Origin: Vicinamibacterales bacterium
GTDB taxonomy: Bacteria; Acidobacteriota; Vicinamibacteria; Vicinamibacterales; UBA8438
DNA length: 64,000 bases
Assembly (NCBI GenBank): GCA_963665465.1
Contig: OY762226.1
Span: 4,741,177-4,805,176, forward strand
Reading direction: 5' to 3'
In this document: positions 5,635-45,703 of the stretch, one piece after another
How positions within the stretch are numbered: the stretch's first letter is position 1
Layout: every line of letters starts with the position of its first letter
Notes under the pieces: generated by a model
The model's database searches: none
What the model saw: only the letters and a program-made list of their open reading frames with translations
Told to the model about the DNA's origin: nothing
Position numbers and translations under genes: made by a program

Positions 5635-7377
5635 GTGCGAACCCTCCCCGCGGGCGTGCTGCTCGTCGCCGGATGGCTGGTGTTCGGCGTTGCGTCCGCC
5701 GCTGCCGGCGGCGGTGCGCCGCAGCCCCCGGCAGGGCTGGTCACGCCCCCCGCACAGTTCGTCCCCGACGTCACCGAGTCCGAGGCCGCTCTGGAAGCGG
5801 TGCAACGGAGCCTCGACGACACCCTGGTCGCCGGCCTGCGGACGTTCGACTGGGCGACGGCGGCCGGCGGGCTGTCCGACGGGTTCCGCGGCCGCTTTCC
5901 GGCGCCGGACGCCGGGCGCGTCGTCGCGGACGGCCGCCTCGCCGTTCGCCGCTACGCGCCGGCTGCCTCGCAGCCGCTGGACCGCGAGGCGTTCCTGGCG
6001 GTGCTGCGCCGCCACACCGCCGGCTGGACCGCCGTCGAGCGCGCCTCGTGGCACGCCTTCGAGTTCCTGCTGGAGCCGGCGCGCGACCGGGCGTTCGTCA
6101 AGGCGCACCTGCAGCTCGGCGGACCGGATCCGGCCGGCGCGCGGTCGGTGCTCGACGCCACGGTGCACGCCGGCGTGAGCGAGGTGGCCCCCGGCCGCTG
6201 GCGTCTCGAGCGGCTCGACGTCGTCGAGGCGACGGTGGTCCGCAGCCCGCATCCGCCGTTCCGGGAGATCACCGATGCCACCGGGTTCCATTTCAACCGC
6301 TCGGAGGCCAACCGCGAGCTGCGGCAGGCGATCGTGGACACGCGCTCGAGCCTCGTCGATTCCGGGCTGGCCGTGGTCGACTGGAACGGCGACGGGTTCT
6401 GGGACCTGCTGGCGACCGAGTCGATGAACCAGGGGGTGCTGTTCCTCAACGACGGCCGGGGCGGCTTCGTGCGCGCGGCGCTGCCCTACGACGACCCGCG
6501 GCTGATTCCCTCGCAGGCCCTCTTCGTCGACCTCGACGGCGACGGTCTGGAGGAACTGGTCGGCAACCGGGTGCTCTACAGCGCGGGGCGCGGCTCGATC
6601 GGCCTGCACACGCGCCGCGACGGCCGCTGGCAGTTTCTCCCCGACGCGCTCGAGTTCGACAATCCGTCGGGCGCGCAGCGCGCGGATGCCCAGCCGCTGA
6701 CCGCCGGCGACGTGAACGGCGACGGGCTGATCGACATCGTGGTGGCCGGCTACGAGACCGACCGGTCGCGCGATCCGGAACGCTTCAACCGGGTGGACGC
6801 GCGGGACGGCGCGGACACCCTGCTGTTCATCAACCGCGGCAATCTGCGGTTCACGGAGGAATCGGACGCGCGCGGCATATCCGGCACGCGCTACACCTAC
6901 GCCGCGCACCTCTTCGACTTCGACGGCGACGGCGACCTCGACCTCTTCGAGGGCAACGACTACGGCGCCAACGAGCTGTGGGACAACCAGGGCGGCGCGT
7001 TCCGCGCGCTGACGGATCATCCGCTCGCCGGCGACGCCGCCAACACGATGGGCATTGCGGTCGCCGACTGGGACAACAGCGGCCGCTGGAGCCTGCACCT
7101 CTCGAACATGTACTCGCACGCCGGGCAGCGCGTAGTTCGTCTGGCGCAGGGTCTCGCCGGCGCCATGCGGGAGCGCCTGGGACGACTCGCCGCCGGCAAC
7201 CAGCTCTTCGTCCAGGGGCCGGACGGCTGGGACGACCGGGCCGCGGCGCTGGGCGTGAGCGACGCGGGCTGGGCCTGGGCGTCGCTGTTCTACGACCTCG
7301 ACAACGACGGCGACCAGGAGCTGTTCGTCACCAACGGGAACACGAGTCACCGCGACCCCGCGGCGCCCGACTACTGA
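5635..7377 (+). CDS. FG-GAP/VCBS-repeat protein; N-terminal part of a longer frame that is interrupted by TGA 7375-7377
   Basis: ORF 5428-7377. Repeats include DWNGDGFWDLL, DLDGDGLEELV, GDVNGDGLIDIVV, FDFDGDGDLDLF and YDLDNDGDQELFV. The start is uncertain: GTG 5635 precedes the hydrophobic segment VRTLPAGVLLVAGWLVFGVASAAA, while ATG 5551 would overlap the divergent PQQ gene. Confidence 0.75.
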   Translation: MRTLPAGVLLVAGWLVFGVASAAAGGGAPQPPAGLVTPPAQFVPDVTESEAALEAVQRSLDDTLVAGLRTFDWATAAGGLSDGFRGRFPAPDAGRVVADGRLAVRRYAPAASQPLDREAFLAVLRRHTAGWTAVERASWHAFEFLLEPARDRAFVKAHLQLGGPDPAGARSVLDATVHAGVSEVAPGRWRLERLDVVEATVVRSPHPPFREITDATGFHFNRSEANRELRQAIVDTRSSLVDSGLAVVDWNGDGFWDLLATESMNQGVLFLNDGRGGFVRAALPYDDPRLIPSQALFVDLDGDGLEELVGNRVLYSAGRGSIGLHTRRDGRWQFLPDALEFDNPSGAQRADAQPLTAGDVNGDGLIDIVVAGYETDRSRDPERFNRVDARDGADTLLFINRGNLRFTEESDARGISGTRYTYAAHLFDFDGDGDLDLFEGNDYGANELWDNQGGAFRALTDHPLAGDAANTMGIAVADWDNSGRWSLHLSNMYSHAGQRVVRLAQGLAGAMRERLGRLAAGNQLFVQGPDGWDDRAAALGVSDAGWAWASLFYDLDNDGDQELFVTNGNTSHRDPAAPDY

Positions 7378-9003
7378 CCGTTCTTCTGGCGACAGGTTGT
7401 CGCCGACGCCGAAGCGATCGAACGGGCATCGCCGTTCGCGCCGGTGGCGGTCGGGGAGCGGCGTGCGTTCCGCGGCTCGTTCAGCGGCTACGAGCGCGAC
7501 CGGCTCTTCTACAACGCGGGCGGGGCGCTGGTCGGGAGCGCGTACGTCTTCGGGCTCGACGGCGACCACGACGGCCGCGCCGCCGCGCCGGTGGACGTCG
7601 ACGGCGACGGCGACCTCGATCTCGCGCTGCTGACCCTGCGCGGCCTGCGGCTGTTCGAGAACACGTCGGACGAGCACGCGCGGCCGGAGACCCGCCGCTA
7701 CGCGCGCGTGCGGCTGGCGGCCACGCGCTCGGCAGCTCCCGCCCTGGGCGCCGTGGTGACGCTGGAGGCGGGCGGCGCCACCCGCCGCGACTACGTGCGG
7801 ATCACCGAAGGTTTCCAGACGCAGGTGCCGCTCGATCTGCACTTCGGCCTGGGCGCCGCCGGGCGTGTCGAGCGCCTCACGGTCGCGTGGCCGTCGGGCG
7901 CCCGCGAGACGTGGAGCGACCTGCCCGCGGACCGGCTGCTGCGCGTGGTGGAGGGCCGCCCGGAGGTGGGGGTCGACGTGCTGCCGCGTTGGCCGGAGGG
8001 CACGCGGCCCAGGCCGGTCGGCCCGCCGTCGACCGCGGTGGACCTGCCGCGGCTGGGGGGCGGCGCCGGGCCGCTGACGTCCGGCGGACGGCCCGCGGTG
8101 GTCAACTTCTGGGCCCCCTGGTGCGCGCCGTGCAACGTGGAGCTGCCGCAGCTCGTGGCGCTGGCGGGACGCTACGGGGGCCGCGTCGACTTCGCCGGCG
8201 TCAGCGTGGAAGTGGACGATCTGGACTCGGTCCGCGGCATGGTCCGCGACCTGGGCGTGCCGTATCCGCAGTTCCTCGCCGACGCACCGGTGATGGAGCG
8301 CTTTTTCGGCGGCGCCGACGCGGCGGCGCTCCCCTCGACGTACGTGTTCGACGCCCGGGGCCGCCTGCGGCGCCAATTCCGGGGTCCGATCACCGAGGCC
8401 GACCTCGACGCGCTGCTGCAGTCGCTGCGCGACGAGGGCCTGTTCGAGGCGGACCTCGAGCTGGCGGCCCGGTCGGCGGCCCGGGCGGGCGACCTCGAGC
8501 AGGCCATCGCGCACTACCGCCGGCTCGCCGCGCGCCGGCCGGGGAGCGCGCAGCCGCTCTACCGCATCGGCGTGGCGGCGCTGGCGCTGGGCGACGTGGA
8601 GCAGGCCCGCGACGCGCTGGAGCAGGCGGTCAGCCGCGCGCCGGCCCACCCGCTGGCGCAGTTCCACCTCGGTCTGGCGCGGCTGCGCTCGGGGCAGCCG
8701 GGGCAGGGGTTCGCCAGCCTGCAGGCGTCGCTGGCGCTGGCCGGACGGGACCCGGCCGCGTTGACGAGCCTGGGCAGCGCGGCGGCGGCGGCGGGGCAGC
8801 TGTGGCTCGCGGTCGACGCGCTGTCGCTGGCGGTGGAGGCGGATCCCGCCTCGTCGTCCGCCTGGCTGGGCAAGGCGCGCGCGCACCGTGCCCGGCGGGA
8901 GCTCGACCGCGCGGCGGCCGCCTACCAGCAGGCGCTGGCGCTCGAGCCGGAGAACGCGGCGGCCCGGCGCGAGCTGAGCGGCCTGACTTCCGACCAGCGG
9001 TAG
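7378..9003 (+). CDS. Same-frame continuation: ASPIC/UnbV-like region, TlpA/ResA-like thioredoxin domain and TPR repeats
   Basis: The ORF track starts at GTG 7444, but the frame is open from 7378 and is the same frame as 5428-7377. The region right after the TGA reads PFFWRQVVADAE. Further motifs: VDVDGDGDLDLAL, VTLEAGGATRRDYV...WPSG, the redox motif VVNFWAPWCAPCNVELPQL, then TPR-like helices. Confidence 0.75.
   Translation, partial: PFFWRQVVADAEAIERASPFAPVAVGERRAFRGSFSGYERDRLFYNAGGALVGSAYVFGLDGDHDGRAAAPVDVDGDGDLDLALLTLRGLRLFENTSDEHARPETRRYARVRLAATRSAAPALGAVVTLEAGGATRRDYVRITEGFQTQVPLDLHFGLGAAGRVERLTVAWPSGARETWSDLPADRLLRVVEGRPEVGVDVLPRWPEGTRPRPVGPPSTAVDLPRLGGGAGPLTSGGRPAVVNFWAPWCAPCNVELPQLVALAGRYGGRVDFAGVSVEVDDLDSVRGMVRDLGVPYPQFLADAPVMERFFGGADAAALPSTYVFDARGRLRRQFRGPITEADLDALLQSLRDEGLFEADLELAARSAARAGDLEQAIAHYRRLAARRPGSAQPLYRIGVAALALGDVEQARDALEQAVSRAPAHPLAQFHLGLARLRSGQPGQGFASLQASLALAGRDPAALTSLGSAAAAAGQLWLAVDALSLAVEADPASSSAWLGKARAHRARRELDRAAAAYQQALALEPENAAARRELSGLTSDQR
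7388..7404 (+). promoter_or_regulatory. 17-nt hairpin 10 nt 3' of the in-frame TGA (SECIS-like candidate)
   Basis: GGCGACA-GGT-TGTCGCC forms a perfect 7-bp stem with a 3-nt loop. The context is TGA CCGTTCTTCT followed by the hairpin. Confidence 0.45.
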
Positions 9004-43494: not shown

Positions 43495-43910
43495 GCAAGG
43501 CGCGCACGGCGCGGGGCGAAGGGGTCCCCGCAAGCGGACGCCGGGGGTTCGGGGCGTAGCCCCATCTGATTGAGCGCCGGCGCAGCCGGCGCAAGGCGCG
43601 CACAGCGCGCCTCGGCGGGAGCGGCGCGGGGCTGTGGGGTCCCCGCAAGCGGACGCCGGGGGTTCGGGGCGTAGCCCCATTCGATTGAGCGCCGGCGCAG
43701 CCGGCGCAAGGCGCGCACGGCGCGCCTCGGCGGGAGCGGCGCGGGGCTGTGGGGTCCCCGCAAGCGGACGCCGGGGGTTCGGGGCGTAGCCCCATTCGAT
43801 TGAGCGCCGGCGCAGCCGGCGCAAGGCGCGCACGGCGCGCCTCGGCGGAAGCGGCGCGGGGCGAAGGGGTCCCCGCAAGCGGCCGCCGGGGGTTCGGGGC
43901 GTAGCCCCGT
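43495..43910 (+). repeat. Tandem array of a 115-bp GC-rich hairpin-forming unit (about 3.6 units, 4 core copies)
   Basis: The core ggggtccccgcaagcgg(a/c)cgccgggggttcggggcgtagcccc starts at 43521, 43636, 43751 and 43866, a constant 115-nt spacing. Each unit also carries aggcgcgc-ac(g/a)-gcgcgcct, an 8-bp stem. Confidence 0.9.
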
Positions 43911-44635: not shown

Positions 44636-45703
44636 ATGGGCGGCATGACATCCAGGTTCCTGCCGCTCGGTATCGCGCTCGGCTGCAGCGTGCTGCTGGC
44701 CGCGCAGTCTCCGCCGCCCCTGCCGGAGGTCGATCGGTTCGGGCCCCAGGCGGGCGAGGTCGTCCCCGATTTCGCGCTGGTCGATCAGACCGGACGCACG
44801 CGGGACCTCGCGTCCGTCCTGGGTCCGAACGGGGCGCTGCTCGTCTTCGCCCGCTCGGCCGTCTGGTGACCGTACTGCAAGACGCAGCTCGTGGAGCTGC
44901 AAGAACGCTACGCCGATCTCACCGCGCAGGGCATTGGTGTGGCCGCCATCTTCTACGACCCGCCGGAGGCGATCCGCGAGTTCGCCGAGGCGCGCGGGAT
45001 CGAGTTCCCGGTGCTGTCGGATCCCGGCTCGGCGGTGATTCGGCGCTACGGCATCCTGAACCGGGAAGTCGAGCCGGACGCGAAGGTGGGCGACTTCCGC
45101 CTGTTCGGCATCCCCTATCCCGGGACGTTCGTGCTCGACGGCGCGGGGCGGGTCGTGGAGCGCTTCTTCGAGCAGCGCTACCAGGAGCGGATCACGGCGG
45201 CGAGCATCGCGCTCCGGCTCGGCGACCCCCTGGAGGGGACGTCCGCCGCCGGGAACGGGATGGACAGCCGGCTGATCGCCGCGCGCGCCTACGCCAGCGA
45301 CGCGGCGGTGGCGCCCGGCAACCGGTTTGCGCTCATGGTCGACATCGAGCCCAAGCCGGGCATGCACGTGTACGCGCCCGGCGATCACATCTACCGCGTC
45401 ATCCGGCTGCGCGTGGACGAGCCCGACTTCCTGCGGGTGCACCCGCTCTCCTACCCGCCGTCGGAGCTGTATCACTACGAGCCGCTGGACGAGACCGTGC
45501 CGGTCTACCAGGAGCCGTTCCGCCTCGTTCAGGAGGTCACCGTGCCGATGAGCGAGGAGACGGCGGCGCTGTCCGCTGCGGGTGGCAAGCTGGTGGTGGA
45601 GGGCGCGCTCGAGTACCAGGTCTGCGACGACGAAGTGTGCTACATCCCCGCCTCGGCGCCGCTCCGCTGGGAGCTGGCGTGGCGGCCGCTGATCCGCGAC
45701 TAG
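44636..45703 (+). CDS. Exported AhpC/TSA-type redoxin with in-frame TGA at the first active-site Cys position (candidate Sec, U-x-x-C), fused to a DsbD-N-like domain
   Basis: ORFs 44636-44869 and 44891-45703 are in the same frame. Read-through gives LLVFARSAVW-TGA-PYCKTQLVELQERYADLTAQGIGVAAI. The C-terminus reads PGMHVYAPGD...ALEYQVCDDEVCYIP. Confidence 0.7.
44884..44900 (+). promoter_or_regulatory. 17-nt hairpin 14 nt 3' of the in-frame TGA (SECIS-like candidate)
   Basis: GCAGCTC-GTG-GAGCTGC forms a perfect 7-bp stem with a 3-nt loop. The context is TGA CCGTACTGCAAGAC followed by the hairpin. Confidence 0.55.

What the first reader, a model, noticed from the sequence alone, without database searches (positions are those of the whole stretch)
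44636..45703. Candidate selenoprotein: exported redoxin with U-x-x-C in place of C-x-x-C, fused to a DsbD-N-like domain
ORFs 44636-44869 and 44891-45703 share one reading frame and are separated only by TGA 44867-44869. Read-through gives ...GALLVFARSAVW-[TGA]-PYCKTQLVELQERYADLTAQGIGVAAIFYDP.... The TGA therefore sits exactly where AhpC/TSA-type redoxins carry the first Cys of W-C-P-x-C. Neither half is a complete thioredoxin fold. The second half could only start at a GTG that lies inside the loop of a hairpin. TGA acts as a normal stop elsewhere in the window (12125, 31836, 46067, 49939, 56915), so a global TGA reassignment does not explain it. The N-terminus is a signal peptide. The C-terminal ~150 aa (PGMHVYAPGD...YQVCDDEVCYIP) resemble the DsbD N-terminal domain. 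Cys-to-Sec redoxins are known in bacteria, but I do not recall this fusion architecture with Sec.
Basis: partly seen in the sequence, partly recalled or inferred. Interest (0 to 1): 0.8.

Follow-up and report, generated by a model that had tools for sequence, protein, structure and literature searches.

The report
Exported selenocysteine redoxin fused to DsbD-like domain
This is very probably one real gene for an exported two-domain redox protein whose active-site cysteine is replaced by selenocysteine (encoded by TGA); gene callers routinely cut it into two pieces, and it is a widespread but previously undescribed variant of a known class of bacterial selenoproteins.

Summary
Window 44636-45703 is one reading frame broken only by TGA 44867-44869. 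That TGA lies in the W-[TGA]-P-Y-C redox motif of an AhpC/TSA-type redoxin domain, which is followed by a DsbD_N-like domain.

The selenocysteine reading is strongly supported by comparison:
- 87 related loci carry TGA at this column and 70 carry TGC/TGT.
- Nearly all TGA forms have the same hairpin (UGA-N14-GCAGCUC-GUN-GAGCUGC). It meets every published bacterial SECIS criterion.
- The hairpin freezes synonymous sites only in TGA forms.
- Sec and Cys forms interleave on a tree, and every Sec clade keeps the hairpin.
- Three metagenome contigs place family members next to selD (itself TGA-interrupted), selB or selA.

The Sec machinery of the source genome itself could not be checked. The window has no sel genes and no tRNA-Sec. 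It does hold a second conserved in-frame TGA with a SECIS-like hairpin at 7375.

The redoxin domain lacks the peroxiredoxin catalytic triad, so it is a U-x-x-C thiol:disulfide oxidoreductase. The C-terminal domain keeps a Cys pair that aligns with the catalytic pair of E. coli DsbD-alpha.

It fits the known "Prx-like thiol:disulfide oxidoreductase" selenoprotein class. The fused second redox centre is an architecture I found described nowhere in the literature searched.

The parts
44636..45703 (+). Complete selenoprotein gene: 355 codons plus TAG stop, read through TGA 44867-44869
   Evidence: One frame with a single internal TGA. Full-length Cys homologs are collinear over the whole length. 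Public gene calls split it into 77-aa and 270-aa products.
44636..44707 (+). Probable signal peptide or N-terminal anchor (about residues 1-24: MGGMTSRFLPLGIALGCSVLLAAQ)
   Evidence: Inference from the sequence: Arg7, then a hydrophobic stretch, then LAA-Q. The AF2 model of Cys homolog P0089 has an isolated low-confidence N-terminal helix at residues 2-20 followed by a coil. Homologs have equivalent N-termini. No signal-peptide predictor was available.
44753..45160 (+). AhpC/TSA (Prx-like, thioredoxin-fold) redoxin domain, residues 40-175
   Evidence: Pfam PF00578, 96.4 bits (cut-off 26); PF08534, 62.1 bits. AF2 plus Foldseek: BcpB 5epf, AhpE and ResA, TM-score about 0.72-0.79 normalised to the target.
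44867..44869 (+). UGA codon read as selenocysteine (residue 78), first position of the U-P-Y-C redox motif
   Evidence: TGA in 87 loci and TGC/TGT in 70 loci at the same column. It aligns with Cys of W-C-P-Y-C in full-length proteins.
44876..44878 (+). Cys81 (TGC), second residue of U-x-x-C; aligns with the peroxidatic Cys position of peroxiredoxins
   Evidence: Profile alignment to M. tuberculosis AhpE. Present in every locus that matched the motif search pattern.
44884..44900 (+). bSECIS-like hairpin: stem 44884-44890 / 44894-44900 (GCAGCUC/GAGCUGC), apical loop GUG 44891-44893; it lies inside the codons for T-Q-L-V-E-L-Q
   Evidence: 7 bp, 3-nt loop starting with GU, 21 nt between UGA and loop, -10.1 kcal/mol. 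This meets the criteria quoted in PMC13188914 Fig. 2A. 61 of 71 unique Sec-form sequences have 7/7 pairs, against 5 of 69 Cys forms. Synonymous stem positions are frozen only in Sec forms. Every Sec clade keeps it.
45305..45652 (+). DsbD_N-like beta-sandwich domain, residues 224-339
   Evidence: Pfam PF11412, 33.6 bits (cut-off 25). AF2 model of window residues 201-355: pLDDT 93.2, all-beta. The only PDB match with E <= 0.001 is the ScsB N-terminal periplasmic domain 6C29_A (E 1.7e-4, TMq 0.56).
45623..45640 (+). Second redox centre: Cys330 (45623-45625) and Cys335 (45638-45640) in YQVCDDEVCYIP
   Evidence: Both Cys are invariant in alignments A1, A3 and A4. They align with the Cys pair of E. 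coli DsbD-alpha, YQGCADAGFCYPP, with one residue fewer between them.

Best explanation
Window 44636-45703 is one gene for an exported, soluble (or N-terminally anchored) two-domain selenoprotein of a Vicinamibacterales (Acidobacteriota) bacterium.

Decoding. During translation, SelB with Sec-tRNA(Sec) would recognise the hairpin at 44884-44900, whose GU loop sits 21 nt after the UGA. It would insert selenocysteine at UGA 44867-44869. The product is a 355-residue protein rather than a 77-residue fragment.

Domains. Residues 40-175 form a Prx-scaffold thioredoxin fold with active site W-U78-P-Y-C81. It lacks the peroxiredoxin Pro/Thr/Arg triad. It should therefore act as a thiol:disulfide (selenol:selenenylsulfide) oxidoreductase, like ResA, CcmG or PrxL, and not as a canonical peroxidase. 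Residues about 224-339 form a DsbD-alpha/ScsB-alpha-type beta-sandwich. Its invariant Cys330-x4-Cys335 aligns with the E. coli DsbD-alpha Cys pair (YQGCADAGFCYPP), which I take to be the catalytic Cys103/Cys109.

Proposed mechanism (inferred, not shown). The two centres form an intramolecular relay in the cell envelope. The alpha-like domain would be reduced by a thioredoxin-fold donor of a DsbD/ScsB/CcdA-type membrane pathway. It would pass the electrons to the tethered U-x-x-C centre. The exposed selenolate would then attack substrate disulfides, sulfenic acids or possibly peroxides. The reverse order (CcdA to U-x-x-C to alpha-like domain to several clients) is the main alternative.

What is shown: gene continuity, the Sec/Cys column, SECIS conservation, both domain folds and both redox motifs. 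What is inferred: Sec insertion itself, export, direction of electron flow and the substrate.

The confidence of 0.88 refers to the claim that this is a single Sec-encoding gene with two redox domains. The favoured direction of electron flow on its own is about 0.55.
For: (1) One frame, one TGA.

(2) Homolog lengths. Most of the 120 listed database hits are 224-288 aa and cover 63-76% of the query; the 76%-coverage ones checked in alignment start at MELQ just after the TGA. Seven full-length hits of 352-383 aa have W-C-P-Y-C.

(3) Codon at the column. GTDB genomes: TGA in the window plus 12 loci, TGC/TGT in 67. Metagenomes: TGA in 74 of 77 loci, at 44-78% identity to the window protein, from varied metagenome datasets.

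(4) Hairpin. 61 of 71 unique Sec forms have 7/7 pairs, against 5 of 69 Cys forms (Fisher p = 7e-23). Entropy at the synonymous stem positions 18/21/24/30/33 is 0.29/0.11/0.37/0.00/0.19 bits in Sec forms and 1.45/0.87/1.40/1.74/1.20 bits in Cys forms. Loop G25 and U26 are invariant while N27 varies freely. Wobble positions outside the stem also vary. L065 keeps the stem through two double compensatory changes. Among 11 Cys forms encoding the identical QLVELQ peptide, only 1 has the full stem.

(5) Phylogeny. Sec and Cys forms interleave on a tree with at least 8 switches. All 8 Sec runs keep 6.5-7.0 of 7 pairs and the GU loop.

(6) All four bSECIS criteria are met. The loop lies 2 nt further from the UGA than in E. 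coli fdhF.

(7) sel genes beside family members. L131 has selD with its own TGA at the column where E. coli SelD has GCGCK, plus a selB remnant. L129 has selD(TGA) plus selB. L127 has selA at 51% identity to E. coli SelA.

(8) A second conserved in-frame TGA with a SECIS-like hairpin lies in the same window.

(9) Domains and motifs.

(10) Periplasmic Prx-like CxxC proteins are known substrates of DsbD-family transporters, and some DsbD/ScsB proteins lack the alpha domain (PMC3322552).
Against: - No selA, selB, selD or tRNA-Sec lies in the 64-kb window or in the 20-kb loci of the closest relatives. A SelD search did not reach the Vicinamibacterales chromosomes. Sec decoding in this very genome is therefore unproven.
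- The hairpin is short. Its folding energy is unremarkable against shuffled sequence. No Rfam family matches.
- The stem is almost invariant, so true covariation comes from very few sequences.
- Adjacency to sel genes was seen on only three contigs, two of them related. About 0.7 such cases are expected by chance among roughly 160 loci (my estimate).
- No membrane partner (CcdA or DsbD-beta) is consistently linked.
Confidence: 0.88

Rival explanations
1. Pseudogene or sequencing error: a TGC/TGT-to-TGA change (real or an assembly artefact) inactivated an ordinary Cys redoxin gene.
For: A single-base change from TGC/TGT gives TGA. Cys forms are common. The source is a metagenome-assembled genome.
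Against: TGA is present at the identical column in 87 loci from independent assemblies, spanning 41-92% protein identity. The frames are intact and conserved on both sides. A specific hairpin co-occurs with TGA in every Sec clade.
Confidence: 0.02
2. Two genuine separate genes: a 77-aa exported peptide ending at TGA, and a 270-aa protein starting at GTG 44891. This is how public gene calls annotate it.
For: Gene callers consistently output these two products.
Against: - The split cuts the thioredoxin fold inside its active-site motif. Pfam AhpC-TSA spans residues 40-175.
- The 270-aa piece would lack a signal peptide although it carries a periplasmic DsbD_N-type domain.
- The seven codons between the TGA and the GTG (PYCKTQL) are conserved as protein.
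- The GTG is the loop of the hairpin, and the segment upstream of it shows no evident purine-rich ribosome-binding motif (my reading).
- Cys forms are single ORFs.
Confidence: 0.03
3. Read-through of UGA by something other than Sec: near-cognate Trp or Cys insertion, or a lineage-specific reassignment. The hairpin would merely stimulate read-through.
For: Sec machinery was not seen in the source genome. Stop-codon read-through stimulated by downstream structure exists in other systems (general knowledge).
Against: - TGA ends other ORFs in the window, and only two junctions look like read-through.
- The column is the nucleophilic Cys of a CxxC motif, the classical Sec/Cys site.
- The invariant G-U in a small apical loop, at the same distance as in fdhF, is what SelB recognises.
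- Contigs of the family carry selA, selB and a TGA-containing selD.
Confidence: 0.05
4. Same selenoprotein but the opposite electron path (a split DsbD). The U-x-x-C redoxin would play the role of DsbD-gamma and take electrons from a membrane CcdA. It would reduce the fused alpha-like domain, which would then serve several thioredoxin-fold clients.
For: The redoxin domain resembles ResA (best NCBIfam hit; PDB hits), and ResA/CcmG-type proteins are CcdA or DsbD substrates (PMC3322552). Alpha domains normally act as the distributing module of DsbD (PMC3322552). TlpA-like thioredoxin genes lie beside about 11 Cys-form loci.
Against: DsbD-gamma domains belong to a different thioredoxin subfamily from AhpC/TSA (general knowledge, not tested here). 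Prx-like CxxC proteins are known as acceptors from the ScsB transporter (PrxL; PMC3322552). No ccdA is linked.
Confidence: 0.25

Closest known systems
Prx-like thiol:disulfide oxidoreductase selenoprotein family (PF00578, UxxC/UxxU; predicted with high confidence; representative WP_010940744.1; PMC13188914 Table, PMC1794560 Table 1)
   Same: AhpC/TSA (PF00578) domain. Sec sits at the first position of a U-x-x-C motif and Cys homologs exist. The UGA is followed by a bSECIS hairpin inside the coding sequence.
   Different: - This protein has an N-terminal export signal.
- It carries a fused about 150-residue DsbD_N-like domain with a second redox-active Cys pair.
- It is found in Acidobacteriota (Vicinamibacterales, Solibacteraceae), whereas the selenoprotein-rich genomes listing this family in PMC1794560 Table 3 are mainly Deltaproteobacteria.
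- Sequence relatedness to the family representative was not tested.
PrxL, the periplasmic peroxiredoxin-like-1 protein (cd02969) of Caulobacter crescentus, a substrate of ScsB (PMC3322552)
   Same: Exported Prx-like protein outside the true Prx family. It is kept reduced by a DsbD-family transporter, and no peroxidase activity was detected for it.
   Different: PrxL is a stand-alone Cys protein. Here the alpha-type carrier domain is fused to the redoxin, and the nucleophile is Sec. Direct homology to PrxL was not tested.
DsbD-alpha (nDsbD, PF11412) and the ScsB-alpha N-terminal domain (PDB 6C29)
   Same: Beta-sandwich fold. The motif YQxC...CYxP aligns with the E. coli DsbD-alpha Cys pair. Periplasmic location is implied.
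   Different: It is not attached to a DsbD-beta membrane domain or to a gamma domain. The spacing is C-x4-C rather than C-x5-C. E. coli nDsbD structures were not among the top 50 Foldseek hits; only ScsB-alpha was significant.
ResA / CcmG / TlpA extracytoplasmic thiol:disulfide oxidoreductases
   Same: Thioredoxin fold with a W-C-x-x-C-type motif; an exported reductase. Best NCBIfam hit (ResA, 45.8 bits) and strong PDB fold hits.
   Different: The score is far below the ResA family cut-off (170 bits). The scaffold is closer to BCP/AhpE-type Prx. Sec replaces Cys, and there is an extra domain.
E. coli fdhF SECIS (archetypal bacterial SECIS)
   Same: A small apical loop holding G-U at a fixed distance 3' of the UGA, inside the coding region. 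The fdhF loop GGUC lies at +22..+25; this one, GUG, lies at +25..+27.
   Different: This hairpin is a simple perfect 7-bp stem with a 3-nt loop. It has no bulged U and no extended lower helix.
TsoB, rhodanese/DsbD fusion-like selenoprotein (NF045694; PMC13188914)
   Same: It is the only DsbD-related selenoprotein entry in the review's table.
   Different: Different domains (rhodanese) and a different motif (UxxxxU). Known to me here by name only; not compared by sequence.

Membership tests
Bacterial selenoprotein gene (SelB/bSECIS-dependent UGA recoding) | In-frame UGA with conserved coding sequence on both sides | tested here: met
   both flanks are conserved as protein across 157 loci. The N-terminal part is 83-87% identical in close relatives (L001-L005, L010).
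Bacterial selenoprotein gene (SelB/bSECIS-dependent UGA recoding) | Cys-containing homologs with Cys aligned to the UGA | tested here: met
   70 loci carry TGC/TGT at the column. Full-length proteins P0078, P0089, P0092 and others have W-C-P-Y-C.
Bacterial selenoprotein gene (SelB/bSECIS-dependent UGA recoding) | bSECIS: 3-9 nt apical loop, 4-16 bp stem, G in the first two loop positions, 16-37 nt from the UGA, MFE <= -7.5 kcal/mol (PMC13188914 Fig. 2A) | tested here: met
   3-nt loop GUG, 7-bp stem, 21-nt spacing, -10.1 kcal/mol. Conserved specifically in Sec forms.
Bacterial selenoprotein gene (SelB/bSECIS-dependent UGA recoding) | selA, selB, selC and selD present in the same genome | not testable with these tools
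   None in the window or in the syntenic loci. The rest of the 5.85-Mb source contig could not be read. Indirect evidence: selD(TGA), selB and selA on contigs L129, L131 and L127 beside family members, and a second TGA+hairpin gene in the window.
Bacterial selenoprotein gene (SelB/bSECIS-dependent UGA recoding) | Selenium actually incorporated (75Se labelling or MS) | not testable with these tools
   Requires experiment.
Prx-like thiol:disulfide oxidoreductase selenoprotein family (PF00578, UxxC) | PF00578 domain above Pfam's gathering score | tested here: met
   96.4 bits against a cut-off of 26.
Prx-like thiol:disulfide oxidoreductase selenoprotein family (PF00578, UxxC) | U-x-x-C redox motif | tested here: met
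   W-U78-P-Y-C81.
Prx-like thiol:disulfide oxidoreductase selenoprotein family (PF00578, UxxC) | Orthology or close sequence relatedness to the described representatives (e.g. WP_010940744.1) | not tested
Peroxiredoxin (Prx) proper | P-x3-T-x2-C active-site motif (Pro and Thr upstream of the peroxidatic Cys) | tested here: not met
   Profile alignment to AhpE: Cys81 aligns with the peroxidatic Cys, but the Thr position is Sec/Cys and the Pro position is Arg.
Peroxiredoxin (Prx) proper | Conserved catalytic Arg | tested here: not met
   By my reading of the regions flanking the alignment gap, AhpE GIANRGTF corresponds to GIPYPGTF here, which puts Pro at the Arg position. P160 and P162 are invariant or nearly so.
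DsbD N-terminal domain (PF11412, DsbD-alpha) | Pfam model above the gathering score | tested here: met
   33.6 bits against a cut-off of 25, residues 224-339.
DsbD N-terminal domain (PF11412, DsbD-alpha) | Immunoglobulin-like beta-sandwich fold | tested here: met
   AF2 pLDDT 93.2, all-beta. The best and only significant PDB hit is ScsB-alpha 6C29 (E 1.7e-4, TMq 0.56). E. coli nDsbD entries are not in the top 50.
DsbD N-terminal domain (PF11412, DsbD-alpha) | Catalytic Cys pair (E. coli YQGC...CYPP) | tested here: met
   YQVCDDE-VCYIP aligns with YQGCADAGFCYPP. Both Cys are invariant. The spacing is one residue shorter.
DsbD / ScsB membrane electron transporter | Membrane-embedded beta domain with two Cys, plus a gamma thioredoxin domain, in the same polypeptide | tested here: not met
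   No such domain in the 355-residue protein. DsbD-beta probes hit only about 8 kb away, in three Cys-form loci.
NCBIfam ResA (NF002854) / SelL-related redox protein (NF040769) | Score above the curated family cut-off | tested here: not met
   45.8 bits against 170, and 45.1 bits against 120.

The most novel reading that the evidence does not exclude
The family is a self-contained selenium-dependent reductase module of the cell envelope. A free-standing DsbD-alpha-like carrier is permanently tethered to its Prx-like client, and the client's attacking Cys has been upgraded to Sec. This may serve bacteria whose DsbD/ScsB/CcdA transporter lacks an alpha domain. If so, it would be a previously unrecognised and abundant exported selenoenzyme of soil and marine Acidobacteriota. 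It would also show that these aerobic soil bacteria place selenium in their envelope redox network, together with the second, CRTAC1-like TGA gene in the same window.
Probability: 0.3. Interest if true: 0.6.

Novelty: new variant of a known kind. Interest (0 to 1): 0.5.

Why it matters
1. Annotation. Most of the closest database homologs are stored as truncated proteins of about 224-288 aa. A common two-centre redox enzyme of Acidobacteriota is therefore invisible as such, and selenoprotein counts for this phylum are underestimated.

2. Biology. A Sec-for-Cys swap at the nucleophile of an exported redoxin that is tethered to a DsbD-alpha-like carrier suggests a fast envelope reduction pathway. 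That pathway would depend on selenium supply in soils and oceans.

3. Evolution. The family offers a clean natural experiment. There are at least 8 Sec/Cys switches, and the SECIS is written into a conserved QLVELQ peptide. This shows how a pre-existing coding sequence can host or lose a recoding signal.

4. Genome context. The same window contains a second conserved TGA+hairpin gene with no Cys counterpart. This hints that Vicinamibacterales carry selenoproteins that Cys/Sec-pair searches would miss.

Tried and rejected
- Rfam scan of the whole window at gathering thresholds: no hit.
- ARAGORN on the window and on 12 Sec-form loci: no tRNA, so no tRNA-Sec.
- tblastn with E. coli SelA, SelB and SelD against the window and L001-L079: nothing real. 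The "SelB" hits in L058, L119 and L140 are CysN-type GTPases. A weaker "SelB" hit in L014 (24.6% over 195 aa) was not examined.
- SelD from L131 was used to look for SelD on the complete Vicinamibacterales chromosomes by matching contig lengths. The top 120 hits were all closer relatives of L131, so the attempt was uninformative.
- The look-up of encoding contigs with the window's 270-aa product: not on record. The source contig is known only by its length, 5,851,533 bp.
- Folding energy of the single sequence against shuffles: not significant (z = 0.21). The energy argument was dropped in favour of comparative evidence.
- Gene neighbourhood. The largest "neighbour" cluster was antisense ORFs of the target itself. 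The real neighbours are not conserved across the family, and no ccdA or dsbD is linked. They are an MFS-type transporter in 21 Sec loci, an ECF sigma factor in 17 loci (15 of them Cys forms), and a TlpA-like protein in about 11 Cys loci.
- Canonical peroxiredoxin function: rejected because the catalytic triad is absent.
- Lipoprotein: the sequence IALGC resembles a lipobox, but that Cys is not conserved in homologs, so I did not adopt this reading.
- Model coordinates were not exposed, so the distance between the two redox centres could not be measured.
- Literature search for the redoxin-DsbD_N architecture: nothing relevant.
Full report
**1. Observation**

Window 44636-45703 (+) is a single reading frame of 355 sense codons. 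It is interrupted once, by TGA at 44867-44869, in the context ...LLVFARSAVW-TGA-PYCKTQLVELQERY....

With the TGA read as Cys, Pfam finds these domains:
- AhpC-TSA over residues 40-175 (96.4 bits);
- Redoxin over residues 38-184;
- DsbD_N over residues 224-339 (33.6 bits, cut-off 25).

The redoxin fold therefore straddles the TGA. The GTG that an ORF finder uses as the start of the second piece is the 3-nt apical loop of a perfect 7-bp hairpin at 44884-44900.

Taken alone, the hairpin is not exceptional for a 72% G+C sequence. The energy z-score against dinucleotide shuffles is 0.21. The case therefore rests on comparison.

**2. The TGA column is a Sec/Cys column in a large family**

A search of 5.8 billion proteins returned 476 relatives. 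Most of the best 120 are 224-288 aa long and cover 63-76% of the query. Those aligned begin at M-E-L-Q just after the TGA. That is what gene callers produce when they stop at an in-frame TGA.

Seven full-length relatives (352-383 aa, 48-50% identity) are collinear from the signal peptide to the C-terminus and have W-C-P-Y-C at the motif.

At the DNA level:
- 79 loci from GTDB species genomes are almost all Acidobacteriota, mainly Vicinamibacterales. Twelve of them plus the window carry TGA, and 67 carry TGC or TGT. That scan used a pattern containing Cys, so it favoured Cys forms.
- A metagenome scan used patterns from the C-terminal part only, but its query was Sec-type. It gave 77 loci with the motif, 74 of them with TGA. 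They are 44-78% identical to the window protein and come from varied metagenome datasets.

Ten loci (L001-L010) share much of the window's gene order (citrate synthase, Ppx, CHAD, ChrA, LysE, target, a 110-aa ORF, Dabb, MBL). These are orthologs, and all of them keep the TGA.

A nonsense mutation, an assembly error, or a pair of independent genes cannot explain this pattern.

**3. A SECIS-type hairpin specific to the TGA forms**

All Sec forms share UGA-N14-GCAGCUC-GUN-GAGCUGC-AA. The stem lies in the codons for (T)Q-L-V-E-L-Q, a peptide that many Cys forms also encode. The synonymous positions are therefore the test.

| Stem position (third codon base) | Sec forms, entropy (bits) | Cys forms, entropy (bits) |
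|---|---|---|
| 18 | 0.29 | 1.45 |
| 21 | 0.11 | 0.87 |
| 24 | 0.37 | 1.40 |
| 30 | 0.00 | 1.74 |
| 33 | 0.19 | 1.20 |

Further points from the same analysis (unless stated):
- The third loop base varies freely (1.23 bits).
- Wobble positions outside the stem vary in both classes.
- Loop bases G25 and U26 are invariant in Sec forms.
- 61 of 71 unique Sec sequences have 7/7 pairs, against 5 of 69 Cys sequences (Fisher p = 7e-23).
- Among 11 Cys forms encoding the identical QLVELQ peptide, only one has the full stem.
- The most distant Sec form (L065, Solibacteraceae, 41% identity) keeps a 7-bp stem through two double compensatory changes.

Shared ancestry does not explain the association. On a neighbour-joining tree the Sec and Cys forms interleave, with at least 8 switches. 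Each of the 8 Sec runs has 6.5-7.0 of 7 pairs and a GU loop in every member. Cys runs average 4.0-5.3 pairs. The exceptions are three Cys forms that sit directly beside Sec clades (L145, L011, L012).

The hairpin meets all four criteria of the published bacterial SECIS model (PMC13188914). It has a 3-nt loop, a 7-bp stem, G then U at the start of the loop, 21 nt between UGA and loop, and an MFE of -10.1 kcal/mol. In E. coli fdhF the GGUC loop lies at +22..+25 from the U of UGA. Here GUG lies at +25..+27.

**4. Sec machinery**

This is the weak point. The window has no tRNA gene, no Rfam hit and no SelA, SelB or SelD homolog. The 20-kb loci of the closest relatives have none either.

Both pieces of the gene are on record from a 5,851,533-bp NCBI/ENA contig, which I could not read further. 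An attempt to reach SelD of the complete Vicinamibacterales chromosomes through contig lengths failed, because closer relatives of the query filled the hit list.

There are two indirect supports.

First, three metagenome contigs place family members next to Sec genes:
- L131 (TGA form) has selD, itself interrupted by TGA at the column where E. coli SelD has GCGCK (AAAG-TGA-AAKLGP), plus a selB C-terminal remnant.
- L129 has the same selD followed by a bona fide selB C-terminus.
- L127 (TGA form) has selA, 51% identical to E. coli SelA.

With about 160 loci, roughly 0.7 chance adjacencies would be expected. This is therefore suggestive as linkage. It is nonetheless direct proof that at least some carriers encode the machinery.

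Second, the window contains another conserved in-frame TGA with a SECIS-like hairpin (section 7).

**5. What the protein is**

The AF2 model of the Cys homolog P0089 is confident (pLDDT 92.3, pTM 0.86). It shows an isolated N-terminal helix (residues 2-20), a thioredoxin/Prx fold and a C-terminal beta-sandwich.

The N-domain's best PDB neighbours are BCP/AhpE-type peroxiredoxins and ResA. A profile alignment to M. tuberculosis AhpE gives the following:
- Cys81 sits on the peroxidatic Cys.
- Sec78 sits on the Prx Thr.
- The Prx Pro position is Arg here.
- The catalytic Arg position (AhpE GIANRGTF) is Pro here (GIPYPGTF), by my reading of the flanking regions.

The Prx triad is therefore not kept. 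The domain is a U-x-x-C thiol:disulfide oxidoreductase on a Prx scaffold. No NCBIfam model reaches its cut-off (ResA 45.8 bits against 170; SelL-related 45.1 bits against 120).

The C-terminal domain of the window protein itself models as an all-beta sandwich (pLDDT 93.2). [quoted passage not shown] Its invariant YQVCDDE-VCYIP aligns with YQGCADAGFCYPP of E. coli DsbD-alpha, the segment holding its Cys pair. Both Cys are invariant across the family.

The protein thus carries two redox centres, U78-x-x-C81 and C330-x4-C335, behind an export signal.

**6. How it most likely works**

Shown: one gene, a Sec/Cys site, a SECIS-type element, two redox domains.

Inferred: SelB-dependent Sec insertion; export; and an intramolecular relay between the alpha-like Cys pair and the U-x-x-C centre.

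DsbD-family alpha domains accept electrons from a thioredoxin-fold gamma domain and reduce thioredoxin-fold clients. In Caulobacter, ScsB keeps the periplasmic Prx-like protein PrxL reduced, and PrxL has no detectable peroxidase activity. Some DsbD/ScsB proteins lack the alpha domain (PMC3322552).

By analogy I favour this order: donor, then alpha-like domain, then U-x-x-C, then substrate (about 0.55). The reverse order is CcdA, then U-x-x-C, then alpha-like domain, then clients (about 0.25).

Gene neighbourhoods do not decide between them:
- An MFS-type transporter gene lies within a few kb downstream in 21 Sec-form loci.
- An ECF sigma factor gene is near 17 loci, 15 of them Cys forms.
- A TlpA-like thioredoxin protein is near about 11 Cys-form loci.
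- DsbD-beta homologs occur only about 8 kb away, in three Cys-form loci.

**7. Seen in passing: a second recoding candidate**

TGA at 7375-7377 interrupts what is clearly one CRTAC1-like protein. FG-GAP repeats lie on both sides, followed by UnbV_ASPIC, a redoxin domain and TPRs.

The supporting points are:
- It is followed by a 7-8-bp hairpin with a GGU loop, 17 nt downstream, at -11.4 kcal/mol.
- 119 of the best 120 database relatives are an N-terminal or a C-terminal half, at 58-99% identity.
- Four further loci keep the TGA and the hairpin. They include a marine one and the chromosome that also carries L010. They also keep a CGA Arg codon, unusual in a GC-rich genome, whose A pairs within the stem.

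Unsplit homologs of about 1,050-1,165 aa exist. At this column 15 of the 17 fetched carry Q, D, N or E and one carries S, and none carries Cys. None of the 17 has a CxxC downstream. All four TGA forms carry NFWAPWCAPCN in the fused redoxin domain.

This looks like a selenoprotein family with no Cys counterpart at the Sec site, or else some other recoding or split. It is absent from the 2026 review's table.

**8. Comparison with what is known, and verdict**

"Prx-like thiol:disulfide oxidoreductase" (PF00578, UxxC) has been a predicted bacterial selenoprotein family since the first comparative surveys. Acidobacteria were already credited with a few selenoproteins in 2006 (PMC1794560; PMC13188914).

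The target meets the two defining features I could test: the domain and the motif. It differs in three ways: the export signal, the fused DsbD-alpha-like domain with a second redox pair, and its lineage. Neither the review nor full-text searches mention this architecture.

I rate it a new variant of a known kind. I put the probability that it is a genuine Sec-encoding single gene at about 0.88. Interest is moderate (0.5). A specialist would not be surprised by the principle. The same specialist would, however, value four things: the abundance of the family, its systematic mis-annotation, the clean Sec/Cys-SECIS co-variation, and the second candidate nearby.

Noticed in passing
window 5950-9003 (+); TGA at 7375-7377; hairpin 7387-7405; also L162, L163, L164, L165, L166: A second conserved in-frame TGA lies inside a CRTAC1-like protein (FG-GAP repeats, TGA, FG-GAP, UnbV_ASPIC, redoxin with WCAPC, TPRs). 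A bSECIS-like hairpin follows it (GGU loop, 17 nt after the UGA). 119 of the best 120 database relatives are split at the same point. Unsplit relatives carry Q/D/N/E (one S) at the column, never Cys, and lack the downstream CxxC, whereas all TGA forms keep the CxxC. It may be a selenoprotein family with no Cys counterpart. It is not in the 2026 review's table.
   Followed up: partly
L131 3901-4990 (-) and L129 793-1860 (-): On metagenome contigs that carry the family, selD is itself interrupted by TGA at the column where E. coli SelD has GCGCK (AAAG-TGA-AAKLGP). About 85% of the 120 best SelD database hits are roughly 319-326 aa, which suggests they are truncated the same way. L129 has selB immediately upstream of selD. 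L131 has only a selB C-terminal remnant.
   Followed up: partly
window 43507-43908; also about 27454, 54893, 56183: A 115-bp tandem repeat (3.5 copies, 96% match) lies between the chromate-transporter and LysE genes. Its 21-nt core (GGGCTACGCCCCGAACCCCCG) recurs at three other sites in the window (7 matches, 0.04 expected). It looks like a dispersed intergenic repeat element.
   Followed up: partly
L012, L014, L016, L018, L025, L026, L034, L037, L039 and others (upstream); L015, L033, L042, L018, L040, L073: Cys forms of the family often lie near an ECF-type sigma factor gene (about 17 loci). In about 11 loci they lie next to a protein with a TlpA-like WCPDC thioredoxin domain. Sec forms of the window's clade lack both. 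This may point to regulation by, or partnership with, an envelope-stress system.
   Followed up: no
L011, L012, L145, L071, L031: A few Cys forms retain the full SECIS-type hairpin. On the tree L011, L012 and L145 sit directly beside Sec clades, and L031 and L071 lie in a Cys run flanked by Sec runs. These are candidates for recent Sec-to-Cys reversions, or for the pre-adapted state from which Sec forms arise.
   Followed up: partly
whole window (crude ORF call): Among about 50 high-GC3 ORFs, TAG stops (about 29) outnumber TGA stops (about 20), and TAA is absent. That is unusual for a 72% G+C genome, where TGA normally dominates. The ORF set includes spurious frames, so this is only a hint.
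   Followed up: no
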